The position numbers and the translations under genes were made by a program. A stretch of DNA of 64,000 nt from a virus. The stretch spans positions 1-64,000 of IMG/VR virus record IMGVR_UViG_3300021478_000015. The stretch is one strand, 5' to 3'. The notes below the pieces were generated by a model, which searched no databases, was not told where the DNA came from, and worked only from the letters and a program-made list of their open reading frames with translations. Shown one piece after another: positions 52,259-61,747 of the stretch; positions within the stretch are counted from its first letter, which is position 1, and every line of letters begins with the position of its first letter.

Positions 52259-52300
52259 ACCCTACACGAAAAGGTGGTGTGTTGGCAAGTCGGCTTAGAG
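52259..52300 (-). promoter_or_regulatory. promoter with operator motif (class A)
   Basis: CTCTAAG-CCGACT-TGCCAA; TTGCCA-18-TAGGGT. Confidence 0.75.
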
Positions 52301-52356
52301 AGACTCCGGGTCGAGAGGGTCCCTGTCCAGAGGGGATGCAGGACCCCGAAGGGGTG

Positions 52357-52629
52357 ATGAGGGATCGGCGCTACCGAGGAGGTGATCAGTCCTGGAAGAG
52401 AAAGGGTGCTTGCGCGGGTGACCCTCTAGCCACTGATTTGCTCTTCGCCACCGAACTCAAGGACCAGGCCGCCGCAGCCAAGCGGTGGTGCAGCGAGTGC
52501 CCGGTCCGGCGGGAATGCCTGGACTACGCCATCTCCCACCATGAGGTATTCGGGGTCTGGGGTGGAGTCATCGAGAGCAGACGGCGTAATCGGCGCTGGC
52601 AGACCAGCATGCGGAGCTTGGCCTCATGA
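52357..52629 (+). CDS. whiB: WhiB-family Fe-S transcription factor
   Basis: W...AC..AK..C..CPVR..CL..GVWGG. Confidence 0.93.
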   Translation: MRDRRYRGGDQSWKRKGACAGDPLATDLLFATELKDQAAAAKRWCSECPVRRECLDYAISHHEVFGVWGGVIESRRRNRRWQTSMRSLAS

Positions 52630-53036
52630 CCCACCTCCGCCAGGCCTGGGCCAAGCTGGTGATGGCGGCCGAGGAGGTTTACTACCACGGCACGGCCAAG
52701 GTGCCGTCCTGGCATCCCACCGAGATCACCCCGCAGACCGGGCGCTACGGCAGGCCCACCTTCCCCCATGACACCGATCCGGACTACGCCTACGCCACCA
52801 AGGACCCCGAGGTGGCCTGGAACTACGCCGAGAAGGCCTGGCACAACACCACCGTGGGGCACCCCAGGGTGTTCAGGGTGAAGCCCCGAGGTCCCGTGGA
52901 GGATGATCCCCACCGGGATGAGCGCGGCGAGCTACGGGGCAACTGGGAGGGTGACATCCGCTCCCGGCACGGCTTCGACGTGGTGGGTGAGGAGCCCATG
53001 CCCGAGCACATGGGTGAACCGGAGGACTGGAAATGA
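52626..53036 (+). CDS. Arr-like ADP-ribosyltransferase
   Basis: YYHGT, YAT, RVFRV.P.GP.EDDP, GN, RS..VVGE. Confidence 0.8.
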   Translation: MTHLRQAWAKLVMAAEEVYYHGTAKVPSWHPTEITPQTGRYGRPTFPHDTDPDYAYATKDPEVAWNYAEKAWHNTTVGHPRVFRVKPRGPVEDDPHRDERGELRGNWEGDIRSRHGFDVVGEEPMPEHMGEPEDWK

Positions 53037-54289
53037 ACCACCTCCGCCAGGCCTGGGGACGGCAGGTCGAGGCCTGGCGCGTCCCCGAGACCATCCGGGG
53101 ATATCCCCTGCCCGTTGGCGGCCAGTTCGCTCATACCCAGGACACCCTGGACCCCGACCTGTTCGACCACAACGAGAGGATGCATCCCTGGATCCGGGAC
53201 TCCCTCATTGACATCCTGGAGGCCTTCTGGCGGCCCCGCTACGGCGACTGGCACTCCTGGACCCGGATCTACCTGGCGGGCTCCCTGGCCAGCTACTGGT
53301 GGTCCACCTTGGACTTCGACACCCTGGTCGGCGTGGACACCCATCGCTTCGTCAGGGACCACCCTGAGTTCGGGGGCATGTCCGATCCCGAGATCTGCCA
53401 GGCCCTCACCCATGAGTTCATCCTGGAGCTTGACCCTCTGTTGAAGGATTGGAGCTTCCCGCCTGAGCCCAACCTGCACCGGCTCATGGACACCCTTAAT
53501 GGCCCGGATCCAACAGATGTGTATAAGTCGGTGCCTTACACATTGGTGACCGGTATTGGGCCGATGGAAATGACTTGGTACGTGAATCCTTCGGCCTATG
53601 ACATCCGGGTCATTAAGCCCTATGCCGCCTACGATGTCACCCAGGATCGCTGGGCTGTGCATCCTGACAAGATGTCTAAGACCTGGGGAGCCCATGCTCT
53701 GGGCAACGTCTTCTGGGAGCACTTGGCCGACGTGGCTGATCACATCAAGGCGGCCCTGGCCCTGCCGGAGCCCGAGCGCACCGCCCATTGTTTGTCCATC
53801 TACGACGCCATCCACGCTGCCCGTGGCAAGGCTTTCTCCCCGGCCGGGAAGGGCGTGACCGATCCCCGCTCTCTACAGTGGATCGTCCTCAATAGATGGG
53901 GTCTCCTTGGTCCCCTGGAGGTGGCTGCTCATCCTGGCCGGGAGATGGCTCACCTACCGCCCGCCCGAGCTTCCTCCTGGCGGGCTCTGGATCCCGGCTT
54001 TGAGGAGGGTGGTCACGGCTCCTGGCGTGAGCATCCGGCAGTGATCATTCCCGAGGGCGGTGCAGCCGGGCGTAAGCGGTATACCGTCCATGTCCATGGC
54101 AACCCGGTGGCCAGCCGGTCCACCCTGCGAGAGGCCAAGGAAGTGCTCGAAGCCGAGCACGGGCCGCTGCCCTGGAAGCGGGTCCGACCCAAGAAGCAAG
54201 AGGCCGAGCATTACTACTTCGGCCCCACCACCGAGTTCTCCGATCCGGGCGAGTATCACTACGTGGAGCATCTGCCGGAGAAAGAATGA
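53033..54289 (+). CDS. Pol-beta-superfamily nucleotidyltransferase with extra C-terminal module
   Basis: IYLAGSLASY...DFD. Confidence 0.75.
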   Translation: MNHLRQAWGRQVEAWRVPETIRGYPLPVGGQFAHTQDTLDPDLFDHNERMHPWIRDSLIDILEAFWRPRYGDWHSWTRIYLAGSLASYWWSTLDFDTLVGVDTHRFVRDHPEFGGMSDPEICQALTHEFILELDPLLKDWSFPPEPNLHRLMDTLNGPDPTDVYKSVPYTLVTGIGPMEMTWYVNPSAYDIRVIKPYAAYDVTQDRWAVHPDKMSKTWGAHALGNVFWEHLADVADHIKAALALPEPERTAHCLSIYDAIHAARGKAFSPAGKGVTDPRSLQWIVLNRWGLLGPLEVAAHPGREMAHLPPARASSWRALDPGFEEGGHGSWREHPAVIIPEGGAAGRKRYTVHVHGNPVASRSTLREAKEVLEAEHGPLPWKRVRPKKQEAEHYYFGPTTEFSDPGEYHYVEHLPEKE

Positions 54290-58500: not shown

Positions 58501-58613
58501 TCGGAGCGGCTCAGCCCACTGATCTCAACAACCCGGAGGCTCCTGAGGGCAAGCAGGCCGCTCTCAGGGCCATGCAGAGACGCATCCGTCACAACATGGG
58601 AGCACGGCGATGA
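55536..58613 (+). CDS. large modular head-associated/internal protein, putative polyprotein
   Basis: GAGGAG SD; upstream of portal; recurring KTA/RTA/RQA/REA junctions. Confidence 0.7.
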   Translation: MTLQGFEVQAAKPKGERASEDEPAQQPIRPGEKSPADRRNLTNDERTVKRRRRRVHAAYSAPGYYLVDKDATPQSERFETVSEAEAQLEPDSGQLIQYLDQAPNSSHVAEPFPPNLNQVNGSLRMSAHTDDEFLFVAADADGDSDEDMDTQDEGMDDKTAALSDDRINDAYERHLQWSKANGHNDPDTVSALRAHERSGGITRAEANGVADLQGIGGGDSDWRSQGHRDEPWPVKEGQLLAAMAKATGPEQQRLMGELEGLRREARQKVLADREIDLADAYIHDTLTPVRVHEHHTAATDWIEDVAEPDLSAQAVHQAMVVEAQEWRRSVSAAVRQDREEYLEQARGRARITASAMGPHREMAFQTFMRTAVEEDQDQQGPASMIQPWAMPPMPLPPTGGGDAPFGIPSGNAPLNGQNFNPMATEVYPGSQILPLDNGASAWPPADNLEGEEPLPPVAPDNYNAVGAETHMSSRREAASDYSPRSGMGGRGGDKPFKATHTYSPIGWDAFDARPHPGSKSITPGVPVQNHGYMSPRGPGGMRLVHVSDESGNHQTIDSRSLGKLSRGDDAFDREQDQDILERNEERRQPYDWDPQRRESGGSIFESNRRQAGYSDEFPHRRHMETQHPGYSGDDGGDPEAAHRQLHGGDWSTPATDGDSIMSAHPDLAEHEKYPGLYDLSTDLGRRFLSSQNFNGPKQTYQEYVSRLSEGSTPMDQEHWAGSMAAVTPAPSNTSIPVTSMMRWGERGTNPDPTGADLAGNPMAGYPEGGNWDKDEAHAQSGEAQSNLPLAPEGPMVAEHLDYITDFPDTGPAEVPSDRAWNIDANQSAAGHDSGVTHGAAASTYDTYHDTPYDDDTLGESQYMSEVPHDFESGGGSQYCRHCGEARRHPMHVYAARMAAGKPPLEPDRSNYATTPGGEAQSTEQYEQAYSSGRNIDYSETGIGQLGTVPVQGYGVTPNGEMFPWQVPPGPGPVGAADVADVPPPGAGQVGAAQPTDLNNPEAPEGKQAALRAMQRRIRHNMGARR

Positions 58614-61600
58614 CTGACCTTTGGACCATGGCCGGAGAAGAGGCGGAGCGTGACGCCGCCGCTCACAAGCTGGCCCTGGCTCGGGTGGCCTGCGCCAACT
58701 ACTGGCCTGTCCTGGCATCAGCCGGGACCAAGGACGAGTATGAGCACGCCAAGGCCCTGATCTCCGATGGGGTCACCACCTCGGTGGCCTCAGTGGCCGT
58801 CTCTCCGGCCGACCAGGCCATCCTGGCCTCACGGGTCCTCGACAGCTTTGATGAGGACTGGGATGCCCACCAGGCCGCTCGCACCGCCGTGGTCGAGGAC
58901 GCTCCCGGTTATGGCCAGCAGATGGGCTTTGGCTTCCCGGCCGAGCCGCTGCCCAACGAGGCTCCCGAGCTAGAGAACGAGATCGCGGGTTGGGAGGGCT
59001 CCGACCGCGAGCAACGGGTGAACATGGGCAACGGCATCGGGGTGGCCGACGACTCCTCTGGCCCCAACGTGGAAGGCCCCGGCCAGAACCAGGGTGAGGA
59101 TCCCTTGCTGCACGCCAGCGCCCTGGACATCGAGGCCGGGCTGGAGCCGGGCGACTATCGCCTGGACGCCTTCGGAGCCCTTATCCCGGTAGAGGCAGCC
59201 GCTAACTACGATTCCCAGTGCCCTCTCTGTGATGAGAGAATCCATTCAAAGGACTATGCCTTTGATGAGGATAGTAATGGTGCGAGTGTCACCCATCCTG
59301 GAGTGATCCATAGTCGTCCTTCAGGTCATCCTGACCTTGAGAAGGCCAAGACTCCGATCATGAAGAGGAGGAAGACCTCGGTCTTTCACACTGCCCCCGG
59401 CGGAGGAGAGCACGCCCCGTACTACGTCCGGCGCGAGGGTGACAAGTACAAGGTGGTCAACCGCAATGGTGACGTGAAGGGCACCTTTAACACCAAGGAG
59501 GAGGCCCGTTCCCAGCAAAAGGCTCTCTACGCCAATGTGCCAGGGGCCAGTGAGGAGGCTGAGAAGCGCCACGGCGAAACCCCAAAAGCAGTGGAGGAGG
59601 AAGGTAAGAAAGCCTCCCTCCAACTGACTGCTCTGCAGCGCCAGGCCATTCAGGTGGCCCGCAACATGGTCGATCAGATGCCCGCCGGGGTAGAGCACCA
59701 CGCCGTGGCCAAAGCCATGTACATGCGGGCCAAGGGATTTGACCTGGATGAGGCCGAGACCGATCTGGTGATCAATGCTGCTCTAGAGAGGATCAATGAG
59801 CGCCTGGATTTTACCAAAGAGGGGGCCTATGACAACCTAGCTGGTGACCTCCATCGCATGAACCATGGAGACCGGTCGCGTTATGAGAGCGAAGGCCATG
59901 CCTTCGAGGTCTCCTACCACGAACGTCCGGCGTATGGCGATATGGGTCAGCCGGTACCCAAGAGTGACAAGTACTCGGGTACGACTGGTGAGTACACCCT
60001 GTACCACCCCCACGGTCAGGCCCAGGAGTTTCATGTAGGACCGTCTGTGCATGCCAAGGGTTACCAGGCCGAGAAGGTTCGGGACACCATGATGGACACT
60101 TGGTCTCGCAAGAAGATGGATCGGCTTATGAGCCAGGGCAATCTTCACACCGCCGATGGCGTCTCCGAGGAGAAGCGGGATCGAGCCGAGTCATCCGGTG
60201 ACACCCTGCCTGGCACCGACAAGTTCCCGATCACCAACAAGACCGATCTGGAGAATGCCAAGCACGATATCGGCCGCACCAATGAGCCCCATGACAAGGT
60301 GGTCAACTACATCAACCGCAAGGCTGATGAGCTAGGGGCTCCCAAGGTTGGTGAGGAGAAGACCTCCCGGATGCGCCGATTGTGGGCCAAGGTGACCGGG
60401 CGTCGTATCACTGCGGTGAACATCCACCACTTTGATAGCTCTGGTGGCAGCTACGACCGTACCCAGACCGATGACAGCATCAAGGACGGGGATGTGTTCC
60501 ACATTCCCAGCGAGAAGATCACCGGCTATATGCACGCGGCGTGGCCGGTGGCGGTCACCGAGAGCAAGGGTCAGTTTCACGGGTTGACCGATCCTCATCG
60601 GCCGCCTGCAGGAGAGGAGGACAGGACCTGTCCCTCCTGTGGGGGCTCAGGGCAAGCCGAGTCCACCGCCAATGCCCCTTACCGCAAGCCGGGTGACACC
60701 ACCTGCTGGGGCTGTGGAGGCAAGGGCTACTACCCCGGTGATCCGCCGGAGCGGGTGGCCCAATGGCACGAAGGCTGGAGTCAAGCTCGGGACCTGGCCC
60801 AGCAGAAGGGCTATCCCCTCGACAGTGGCACCCATGAGGCGTCGCGCCGGACCGCCCAGGGCGACATGAGCAATCCCATGGATCCCTCCTCGACGGGCAA
60901 TCCATTTTCCCCGGCTCAGGATGTCAACTCGGCCATGACCGACCAGAACCCCACCATGGGGGCGGGGGCCGGAGCGGGCGGGGCCATGAGCCCCAACACC
61001 GCTCCGCCCGACGAGATCCCTGGCCAGACCCAGCCTGGCTCAGCCACCGGCACGGCGGCCTCCTCGAAGCCCCGGACCAAGCCGTCCGAGAACCCCAACG
61101 CTCCGAACAAGCCAAGGCCGATGCAGCCACAGGGTATGCCCATGACCATGCCCGGCCAGATGATGACCGGCATGCCCATGATGGGTGTCAGGGTGCCGAC
61201 ACCGCCGGATCACAAGCGTCATATTCAGTGGCTCATGCATCAGTACGCCTTGAACCCTGATGAAGCCGAAGAAGAGGCGCAACGGCGATACCAAAGCTAT
61301 CCCGATACCCAGAAGCAGTGGGGGGCTAAGCCTGAGGATATCAGTACGGGTCCCAATCGTGATTTCACCAATCCGATCTCTGATCAGAATGAGAAGTATG
61401 GACCGAAGGTTTCCAGTAAGGCTCAGGTGATCATTGCAGAGTCGATCCTGGAGAACAACCCCGATCTCAGTGATGAGGAAGCTCTGCATCTGGCGATCAA
61501 GACCATCGAGCGTTATCCCCATGTGGTCAAGGAGGCCTACGGAGGGTCCGACTACCCTTTTGACTCAGCGACCGGGGGTTACAGCGTCTGCAGCCAATGC

Positions 61601-61747
61601 GGAGTTGAGGCCTTTGACAGCCGCACCGGTCACTGCCACAACTGCGGCTATGTCGCCGGGGCCGGGAGGGTCGGCTTCGACCCTCTGGTAGGCCCCACCA
61701 CCATCCGGCCGGGGCGGGCTGACCTTCGTAACCCTGGACTCAGGTAA
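58610..61747 (+). CDS. large modular head-associated/internal protein, putative polyprotein
   Basis: Small modules separated by HTA/RTA/KTS/KEA; includes a DUF6582-like FPI..D..NA..IGR module. Confidence 0.7.
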   Translation: MTDLWTMAGEEAERDAAAHKLALARVACANYWPVLASAGTKDEYEHAKALISDGVTTSVASVAVSPADQAILASRVLDSFDEDWDAHQAARTAVVEDAPGYGQQMGFGFPAEPLPNEAPELENEIAGWEGSDREQRVNMGNGIGVADDSSGPNVEGPGQNQGEDPLLHASALDIEAGLEPGDYRLDAFGALIPVEAAANYDSQCPLCDERIHSKDYAFDEDSNGASVTHPGVIHSRPSGHPDLEKAKTPIMKRRKTSVFHTAPGGGEHAPYYVRREGDKYKVVNRNGDVKGTFNTKEEARSQQKALYANVPGASEEAEKRHGETPKAVEEEGKKASLQLTALQRQAIQVARNMVDQMPAGVEHHAVAKAMYMRAKGFDLDEAETDLVINAALERINERLDFTKEGAYDNLAGDLHRMNHGDRSRYESEGHAFEVSYHERPAYGDMGQPVPKSDKYSGTTGEYTLYHPHGQAQEFHVGPSVHAKGYQAEKVRDTMMDTWSRKKMDRLMSQGNLHTADGVSEEKRDRAESSGDTLPGTDKFPITNKTDLENAKHDIGRTNEPHDKVVNYINRKADELGAPKVGEEKTSRMRRLWAKVTGRRITAVNIHHFDSSGGSYDRTQTDDSIKDGDVFHIPSEKITGYMHAAWPVAVTESKGQFHGLTDPHRPPAGEEDRTCPSCGGSGQAESTANAPYRKPGDTTCWGCGGKGYYPGDPPERVAQWHEGWSQARDLAQQKGYPLDSGTHEASRRTAQGDMSNPMDPSSTGNPFSPAQDVNSAMTDQNPTMGAGAGAGGAMSPNTAPPDEIPGQTQPGSATGTAASSKPRTKPSENPNAPNKPRPMQPQGMPMTMPGQMMTGMPMMGVRVPTPPDHKRHIQWLMHQYALNPDEAEEEAQRRYQSYPDTQKQWGAKPEDISTGPNRDFTNPISDQNEKYGPKVSSKAQVIIAESILENNPDLSDEEALHLAIKTIERYPHVVKEAYGGSDYPFDSATGGYSVCSQCGVEAFDSRTGHCHNCGYVAGAGRVGFDPLVGPTTIRPGRADLRNPGLR

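What the first reader, a model, noticed from the sequence alone, without database searches (positions are those of the whole stretch)
52626..54289. Shared M-x-HLRQAW leader on two unrelated enzymes: candidate capsid-targeting signal
Seen: the ADP-ribosyltransferase starts MTHLRQAWAKLVMA and the adjacent nucleotidyltransferase starts MNHLRQAWGRQVEA; the first 25 nt match at 24 positions and the rest is unrelated. A similar segment, RMRRLWAKVTGRRITA, occurs inside ORF 58610. Established: T4 internal proteins carry a short cleaved capsid-targeting peptide, and T4 injects the ART Alt. Inference: a portable tag loading host-modifying enzymes into the head for injection.
Basis: partly seen in the sequence, partly recalled or inferred. 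Interest (0 to 1): 0.76.

Follow-up and report, generated by a model that had tools for sequence, protein, structure and literature searches.

The report
Shared start tag on phage enzymes
Two unrelated enzymes of an uncultured 157-kb phage of actinobacteria start with the same short peptide, a conserved and swappable header found on stand-alone copies of enzyme modules that this phage also strings behind its capsid protease; it is probably an address tag, but loading into the capsid has not been shown.

Summary
Genes 52626-53036 and 53033-54289 both begin M-x-H-L-R-Q-A-W, 24 of the first 25 nt match, nothing else aligns, and the genome has only these two copies.

The first gene has the Arr ADP-ribosyltransferase fold. 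The second is a probable Pol-beta-type nucleotidyltransferase. Its core is a common module of giant multi-domain phage proteins.

The leader is selected as a peptide. Free-standing relatives of gene 2 keep H-L-x3-W at the N-terminus down to 37% identity, including in a 41% GC phage with different codons. Copies embedded in long proteins lack it.

In relatives it also heads other, unrelated cassettes, and a second dialect (M-S-L-L-W) heads four consecutive genes between neck and sheath genes.

The near-identical DNA copies come from recombination. One cassette's presence or absence is bounded by leader copies. In another relative a leader-flanked cassette splits gene 2.

The same cassette types occur as modules of this phage's 3,116-aa prohead-protease polyprotein, which this scan reported earlier.

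A portable tag is therefore supported. Capsid loading is the leading reading (about 0.4) but rests on circumstantial evidence only. I found no cleavage motif and no virion data. The third "similar segment" in ORF 58610 is not significant.

The parts
52626..52673 (+). Leader copy 1: first 16 codons of the Arr-like gene. The core is M-T-H-L-R-Q-A-W, followed by a hydrophobic stretch ending A-A-E.
   Evidence: The AF2 model gives a helix at aa 3-15 with pLDDT about 48, so it is not packed into the fold. Homologues without the leader start right at the Y-H-G-T strand.
53033..53074 (+). Leader copy 2: first 14 codons of the NTase-like gene. The core is M-N-H-L-R-Q-A-W.
   Evidence: Helix at aa 2-14, pLDDT 54-67. 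It is as conserved as the enzyme core among free-standing relatives, 0.67 against 0.63.
52626..53036 (+). Arr-family ADP-ribosyltransferase, 136 aa: a free-standing cassette.
   Evidence: Pfam PF12120. Foldseek matches 9iaf and 2hw2 at E 3.5e-6 and 6e-6. H21, Y56, E92 and D94 are invariant in relatives.
53033..54289 (+). Probable Pol-beta-type nucleotidyltransferase, 418 aa: leader, core (aa 25-305) and a separable C-terminal domain (aa 306-418).
   Evidence: G83, S84, D94 and D96 are invariant. The core has 480 relatives, and 115 of the best 150 are longer than 500 aa. The C-terminal domain is a separate gene in L005 and in P0045.
52357..52629 (+). whiB-like gene. Its stop overlaps the start of leader copy 1 (ATGA). 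It forms the left flank of the cassette site.
   Evidence: Pfam WhiB, E 4.6e-18. The junction is shared with relative L018. The start at 52357 is inferred from the L018 homologue.
60368..60415 (+). Leader-like segment inside ORF 58610 (aa 587-602). It is weak and is not counted as a copy.
   Evidence: It scores 1.9 bits with the M-S-L-L-W profile and is absent from the top hits of the H-L-x3-W profile. It does lie at a junction between two modules whose order is swapped in relatives G001 and G002.

Best explanation
The shared leader is a selected, portable N-terminal peptide: a short amphipathic helix with the core H-L-x3-W. It marks free-standing copies of effector modules (Arr-type ADP-ribosyltransferase, NTase-like enzyme and others). 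In this phage group the same modules otherwise sit inside giant multi-domain proteins, including this genome's prohead-protease polyprotein. Its most likely job is that of an address tag, analogous to the T4 capsid targeting sequence. The tag would recruit solo effectors to the assembling head so that they are delivered with the DNA. The near-identity of the two DNA copies has a separate cause: leader copies are the crossover points at which cassettes are gained and lost. SHOWN: the repeat, peptide-level conservation, portability, cassette gain and loss at leaders, and module kinship with the polyprotein. INFERRED: that the tag acts in head loading, and that it is removed afterwards.
For: (1) Portability. 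In relative L018 three consecutive genes (a Zn-ribbon-like cassette, the Arr-like gene and the NTase-like gene) all carry the leader. The L005 cassette and its 79%-identical relative P0158 carry it too, as does a 169-aa gene in L033.
(2) Peptide-level selection. Nine of the eleven closest free-standing relatives of gene 2, down to 37% identity, have H-L-x3-W within the first 15 residues. Only 4 such matches occur elsewhere in 154,866 residues. A 41% GC phage encodes the leader with different codons. Two leaders in L018 differ by three synonymous changes within the six-residue core. Leader conservation is 0.67, against 0.63 for the enzyme core and 0.30-0.37 for the variable parts.
(3) The tag is present only when the module stands alone. 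Thirty embedded copies have no such peptide in front of the module.
(4) Cargo kinship. The 3,116-aa ORF at 98031-107381 starts with a head-maturation-protease domain (phrog_18299, E 8e-24). It contains an Arr-ms domain that Pfam matches in two stretches (BLASTP and a linker scan point to two or three Arr-like units), plus NUDIX and GNAT domains. It also holds homologues of the L005 cassette (55% identity, E 3e-81) and of an L019 cassette. In it each Arr-like module directly follows the inter-module linker, which is the position the leader holds in gene 1.
(5) A second dialect, M-S-L-L-W, heads four overlapping genes placed between neck genes and the tail sheath gene in L019, and one gene at the same site in L022.
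(6) The leader is a low-confidence helix outside the folds.
(7) Precedent. T-even internal proteins are diverse and share only the capsid targeting sequence (PMC3012670). Solo GNATs among late genes of mycobacteriophages were proposed to be capsid-deployed (PMC5512222).
Against: There is no direct evidence of packaging. No consistent cleavage motif follows the leader: A-A-E follows it in three cassettes but not in gene 2. A profile of the nine polyprotein linkers does not score the leaders. In the 41% GC phage L032 only the gene 2 homologue carries the leader, while the neighbouring solo ArdC-MPTase and Fic genes do not. The tag could therefore be mainly a trait of one family. In this genome only two genes carry it. 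They sit just after whiB, about 10 kb upstream of the portal, and I could not determine when they are expressed. No cultured relative carries the tag.
Confidence: 0.4

Rival explanations
1. The leader is a functional, module-independent peptide, but for another generic purpose. Candidates are an amphipathic helix that takes the enzymes to the membrane or to a common host or phage partner, a helix that drives assembly of the solo enzymes with each other, or a signal that sets their stability.
For: It rests on the same evidence for selection and portability. The helix has one hydrophobic face (Leu, Trp, Leu/Val) plus basic residues (read). In L032 and L033 the tagged genes lie among nucleotide-metabolism and accessory genes, not head genes.
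Against: It does not explain why the tagged families are just those that also occur as modules of head-protease-fused or polyvalent proteins. It also does not explain why the M-S-L-L-W arrays sit inside the neck-sheath operon.
Confidence: 0.25
2. The leader is simply the native N-terminus of the NTase-like family. It was copied onto neighbouring genes as a by-product of illegitimate or short-homology recombination at that gene's 5' end. On the other enzymes it does nothing beyond providing a working start.
For: The gene 2 family carries it most widely, and alone in L032. In G001 and G002 gene 2 is the first gene of the rightward block and no cassettes lie upstream. The window's whiB-Arr junction is a chimera of the two L018 junctions, with the crossover inside the leader. 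In L005 a cassette with a leader at each end has landed inside gene 2, and L018 has a 6-codon footprint at that same site.
Against: The six-residue core is kept through three synonymous changes on a non-NTase cassette, while the residues after it diverge. The Arr-like lineage keeps a leader at 53% identity. The M-S-L-L-W arrays have no NTase-like gene next to them. Embedded NTase-like modules do without the leader, so it is not part of the enzyme.
Confidence: 0.25
3. The conserved element acts as nucleic acid: a translational-coupling or SD-sequestering hairpin, or purely a recombination site.
For: All array genes overlap the previous stop (ATGA or GTGA). The leader contains CACCTCC, which can pair with the upstream GGAGG at gene 2. 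Leader copies do serve as crossover points.
Against: The peptide is kept with different codons in a 41% GC phage. Folding energies around the starts are no better than shuffles (z = 0.68, -0.25, -0.21) and the hairpin is not shared. The DNA motif is absent elsewhere in this genome, and scans of the virus and metagenome collections returned only chance matches.
Confidence: 0.05

Closest known systems
Phage T4 capsid targeting sequence (CTS) on internal proteins IPI-III and Alt
   Same: A short N-terminal peptide is the only thing shared by a diverse, exchangeable set of host-directed proteins, one of them an ADP-ribosyltransferase (PMC3012670, PMC5512222). The tag-coding DNA also bounds variable cassettes.
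   Different: This is a different phage lineage: an actinobacterial myovirus with an HK97-type head protease fused to a polyprotein. I did not test sequence similarity to the T4 CTS. I found no protease consensus after the tag. Packaging is untested. The tag comes in lineage-specific dialects.
Polyvalent proteins of phages and conjugative elements (Iyer et al. 2017, PMC5512222), including this genome's protease-headed polyprotein (earlier scan notes e1-5659918 and e1-5659907)
   Same: The same module families occur (Arr-type ART, GNAT, the NTase-like core and the L005-cassette domain). The proposed role is the same: effectors delivered at infection. That paper notes solo versions next to late genes.
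   Different: Here the modules are single-domain, free-standing genes with their own start and a common header. They are not domains joined by the G-L-x-x-F-V-A-A type linker, and the header is not detectably related to that linker.
Arr rifampin ADP-ribosyltransferases (PF12120; PDB 2hw2)
   Same: The fold and the conserved His, Tyr and acidic positions match.
   Different: It has an extra N-terminal leader and lies in a phage effector context. The substrate is unknown. PMC9503650 reads phage Arr homologues as antibiotic-modifying, which need not apply here.
Other repeated header or linker peptides on phage cargo modules reported by this scan (for example e1-5324543, e1-5339738)
   Same: Lineage-specific short peptides start units of cargo that can be gained or lost. 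Some homologues of the L005 cassette carry a K-H-P-R...G-x-F header in place of this leader.
   Different: Those cases lie mostly inside polyproteins and follow candidate protease sites. Here the peptide is at the very N-terminus of separate genes.

Membership tests
T4-type capsid targeting sequence | A short N-terminal peptide shared by otherwise unrelated proteins | tested here: met
T4-type capsid targeting sequence | The cargo genes are diverse and exchangeable, and only the tag is conserved | tested here: met
   Cassette presence or absence is bounded by leaders. A leader-flanked cassette is inserted in L005. Arrays of unrelated genes occur.
T4-type capsid targeting sequence | The tag is removed by the prohead protease at a consensus site | tested here: inconclusive
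   A-A-E follows the helix in three cassettes but not in gene 2. The polyprotein-linker profile does not score the leaders.
T4-type capsid targeting sequence | The tag is necessary and sufficient for incorporation into the prohead | not testable with these tools
   This needs virion proteomics or reporter fusions.
T4-type capsid targeting sequence | Late expression together with head genes | tested here: inconclusive
   The L019 array overlaps neck genes upstream of the sheath gene. In this genome the genes follow whiB in a tight block ending 306 nt before the portal, and no promoter was identified.
T4-type capsid targeting sequence | Sequence homology to the T4 CTS | not tested
Polyvalent proteins (Iyer et al. 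2017) | Several effector domains in one polypeptide | tested here: not met
   Gene 1 is a single Arr domain. Gene 2 has one enzyme core plus a small C-terminal domain. They are solo versions.
Polyvalent proteins (Iyer et al. 2017) | Domain families shared with polyvalent proteins | tested here: met
   115 of the best 150 relatives of the gene 2 core are longer than 500 aa. The genome's own protease polyprotein holds an Arr-ms domain.
Arr ADP-ribosyltransferase (PF12120) | Pfam score above the gathering cut-off, and the Arr fold | tested here: met
   25.6 bits against 25.0. Foldseek 2hw2 at E 6e-6, probability 1.00.
Arr ADP-ribosyltransferase (PF12120) | Catalytic His, Tyr and acidic residues | tested here: inconclusive
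   H21, Y56, E92 and D94 are invariant in 7 relatives. Mapping them onto the Arr catalytic residues rests on memory.
Pol-beta superfamily nucleotidyltransferase | G-S ... D-x-D active-site motif | tested here: met
   G83, S84, D94 and D96 are invariant in 25 sequences.
Pol-beta superfamily nucleotidyltransferase | Fold or profile match to known NTases | tested here: inconclusive
   The top Foldseek hits are all NTases but at E above 0.2. VIA gives Z 5.2-5.3 to minimal NTases. There is no Pfam or PDB profile hit.

The most novel reading that the evidence does not exclude
Large actinobacterial myoviruses run a two-track cargo system. One track is a polyprotein carried in by the prohead protease. 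The other is a set of free-standing effectors, each loaded through a short lineage-specific N-terminal address peptide (H-L-x3-W or M-S-L-L-W dialects). That peptide also serves as the recombination handle for swapping cargo. It would be a natural, transferable packaging tag outside the T4 group.
Probability: 0.35. Interest if true: 0.75.

Novelty: new variant of a known kind. Interest (0 to 1): 0.6.

Why it matters
If the tag does load proteins into the head, it extends the T4 principle of one address peptide and many interchangeable cargo proteins to an unrelated group of actinobacterial phages. It would also explain how solo versions of polyvalent-protein modules reach the host, and it would give a short peptide that could be tested for packaging foreign proteins into actinophage capsids. 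Even without that, the locus is a clear example of how phages add and remove genes: crossovers fall inside a 25-35-nt start-of-gene repeat, so every product keeps a working start.

Tried and rejected
(1) I scanned for the leader as DNA. The IMG/VR scan returned only the L005 pair plus internal chance matches. The JGI metagenome scan returned only an Hsp70-like internal match.
(2) blastn of the region against cultured phages and plasmids found nothing. tblastn of the Arr-like protein against cultured phages found nothing, and gene 2 found only 26-28% identity hits in Streptomyces phages, without the leader.
(3) A profile of the polyprotein linkers scored against the leaders gave no match. A profile of the M-S-L-L-W leaders scored against this genome lifted neither the ORF 58610 segment nor its N-terminus above noise.
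(4) RNA folding around the starts was not better than shuffles.
(5) One complex prediction was run, the Arr-like protein against the protease domain of the polyprotein. It returned no verdict, so it counts neither for nor against binding.
(6) The promoter and terminator scan and a k-mer search of the region upstream of whiB gave no shared late-promoter motif. They found only a recurrent SD-containing palindrome.
(7) PADLOC and PHROGs gave no family for gene 2 or for the other cassettes.
(8) I first suspected that 'A-W-A-R' in front of the last polyprotein module was a leader. It is part of a conserved tail of a GNAT module seen in many polyproteins.

Full report
OBSERVATION. ORF 52626-53036 (136 aa) and ORF 53033-54289 (418 aa) overlap by ATGA, and both begin M-x-H-L-R-Q-A-W. 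From the ATG, 24 of 25 nt are identical, and the single difference changes residue 2. The 19-nt core occurs exactly twice in the window, against 0.10 matches expected in shuffles with up to 3 mismatches. It also occurs exactly twice in the whole genome. BLASTP aligns only residues 1-14 of the two proteins.

WHAT THE GENES ARE. The window is the first 64 kb of a 156,983-bp IMG/VR virus record with 62% GC. Bases 1-50 kb hold replication genes: helicases, primase, DNA polymerase, a UvsX-like recombinase and ribonucleotide reductase. A whiB-like gene comes next, followed by the two tagged genes, small genes and two proteins of about 1,000 aa. The portal gene is at 63314-65521.

Gene 1 is an Arr-family ADP-ribosyltransferase. 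Pfam PF12120 scores just above its cut-off. The AF2 model matches Arr structures at E 3.5e-6 and 6e-6. H21, Y56, E92 and D94 are invariant in relatives.

Gene 2 has no Pfam, PHROG or PDB-profile hit. It keeps an invariant G-S...D-x-D motif. Its model's weak best matches are all nucleotidyltransferases. I therefore call it a probable Pol-beta-type NTase.

GENE 2 IS A POLYVALENT-PROTEIN MODULE. A search of 1.84 billion representative proteins found 480 relatives of its core, aa 25-305. Of the best 150, 115 are longer than 500 aa and carry the core at varied internal positions.

THE LEADER IS SELECTED AS A PEPTIDE.
- Nine of the eleven closest free-standing relatives, down to 37% identity, have H-L-x3-W within their first 15 residues. 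Only four such matches occur anywhere else in 154,866 residues of the 150 proteins.
- Thirty embedded copies show no such peptide in front of the module.
- Across the free-standing relatives the first eight residues are conserved at 0.67, against 0.63 for the enzyme core and 0.30-0.37 for the variable parts.
- One relative lies in a 151-kb phage contig whose fetched 11-kb stretch is 41% GC. It encodes the same peptide with different codons.
- In relative L018, two leaders on unrelated genes differ by three synonymous changes within the six-residue core, while the residues after the core diverge.

These results rule out a DNA- or RNA-level reason for the conservation. Folding energies around the starts are also no better than shuffles.

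THE LEADER IS PORTABLE.
- L018 is the closest relative (its Arr-like protein is 88% identical). After whiB it has three consecutive overlapping genes with the leader: a Zn-ribbon-like cassette, the Arr-like gene and the gene 2 homologue.
- L005 has a 246-aa cassette with the leader, and its 79%-identical relative P0158 also starts with it.
- L033 has a 169-aa gene with a leader two genes upstream of its gene 2 homologue.
- A more distant phage, L019, has four consecutive overlapping genes that all start M-S-L-L-W: an Arr-like gene at 53% identity, an unknown, a GNAT and another unknown. They lie between two neck-region genes, just upstream of the tail sheath gene.
- L022 has a single Arr-like gene with that start at the same site.
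- P0007 has one such leader in front of two fused modules.
- The alignment of Arr-like proteins places the Trp of both dialects in the same column, just before the first strand of the fold. Other Arr-like homologues lack any leader.

WHY THE TWO DNA COPIES ARE NEARLY IDENTICAL. The window's whiB-Arr junction equals the left flank of the L018 whiB-cassette junction joined to the right flank of the L018 cassette-Arr junction. The switch falls inside the leader. That cassette was therefore lost or gained by recombination between leader copies.

In L005 a segment made of leader, cargo, stop, start and a second leader is inserted inside the gene 2 homologue. The downstream third of the gene is consequently re-started with a leader. 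L018 carries a six-codon footprint at exactly that site, while L004 and the window do not. Each genome examined holds the DNA motif only as such flanking copies, or not at all.

LINK TO THE HEAD. Earlier notes of this scan describe ORF 98031-107381 as a prohead protease followed by about 19 modules. I checked the following points myself.
- Residues 55-206 match a head maturation protease (phrog_18299, E 8e-24).
- The ORF lies upstream of a scaffold-position gene and the major head protein.
- Pfam finds NUDIX, Arr-ms, ParB-N and GNAT domains in it.
- A G-L-x-x-F-(V/I)-A-A type linker recurs nine times.
- The L005 cassette is 55% identical to its last module, and an L019 cassette matches another module.
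- Each Arr-like module directly follows a linker, which is the position the leader holds in gene 1.

A profile of the linkers does not score the leaders, however. The relation is one of position, not of detectable homology.

STRUCTURE. In both models the leader is an N-terminal helix of low confidence, outside the folded domain.

INTERPRETATION. The data show three things. The tag is generic, module-independent and under selection. It is needed only when a module stands alone. It sits on the kinds of enzyme that this phage group otherwise carries behind its head protease or in polyvalent proteins.

The best-known system with these properties is the T4 capsid targeting sequence. There, diverse internal proteins share only the tag (PMC3012670), and the ADP-ribosyltransferase Alt is packaged and injected (PMC5512222). 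Iyer et al. also proposed that solo GNATs among late genes of mycobacteriophages are deployed through the capsid (PMC5512222).

I therefore rank head loading first, at about 0.4. I rank it no higher for these reasons:
- No cleavage consensus follows the leader.
- In the 41% GC phage only the gene 2 homologue is tagged, while neighbouring solo ArdC-MPTase and Fic genes are not.
- Expression timing in this genome could not be read.
- No cultured relative exists.

The rivals are another generic role for the helix (0.25), a neutral by-product of insertions at the 5' end of gene 2 (0.25), and a nucleic-acid element (0.05).

THE THIRD SEGMENT. The segment in ORF 58610 (aa 587-602) is not distinguishable from chance by either leader profile. 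It does lie at the junction of two modules whose order is swapped in relatives G001 and G002. I record this as unexplained.

NOVELTY. I found no description of this peptide in the literature I searched and read. It is a new variant of a known kind: address or header peptides on diversified phage cargo, and solo versions of polyvalent-protein modules. This scan has noted comparable header and linker peptides in other phages.

Noticed in passing
window 58610-61747 (ORF 58610) compared with loci L024-L030: The 1,045-aa protein next to the portal block is modular. In relatives G001 and G002 the modules matching aa 499-591 and 602-750 are in swapped order. G001 has an extra leader-like R-L-W motif at another junction.
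   Followed up: partly
G000 98031-107381 (outside the window; locus L031): The protease-headed polyprotein holds Arr-like modules of its own (two or three by the evidence), each right after a linker, besides NUDIX, ParB-N and GNAT modules.
   Followed up: partly
L005 3995-6050; P0045: The C-terminal domain of gene 2 (aa 306-418) exists as a separate gene in L005, re-started by a leader, and as a 117-aa free-standing protein without a leader in another phage. It is therefore a separable domain.
   Followed up: partly
P0162, P0164, P0165 (homologues of the L005 cassette): Other phages put a different N-terminal header (K-H-P-R...G-x-F type) in front of the same module family. This suggests lineage-specific headers on one cargo type.
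   Followed up: no
window about 147-190, inside ORF 39-275: An internal Met is followed by a leader-like V-Q-H-L-R-A-M-W. It is the fourth-best hit of the leader profile in the genome (8.6 bits, E 0.21). Significance is unclear.
   Followed up: no
window 52344; also 7471, 9988, 42100 and genome 98017, 111775, 114170: A 12-13-nt palindromic, SD-containing motif (CCCCGAAGGGGTG type) recurs. The three copies checked lie just upstream of starts (the whiB, protease-polyprotein and 114185 genes).
   Followed up: no
window 52279-52629: The whiB ORF as listed starts at a GTG inside the divergent promoter region. By comparison with L018 the real start is more likely the ATG at 52357.
   Followed up: partly
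L032 6816-8170: In the 41% GC phage the gene 2 homologue is followed by solo ArdC-N/MPTase-PolyVal and Fic genes. This is a cluster of polyvalent-type modules as separate genes.
   Followed up: no
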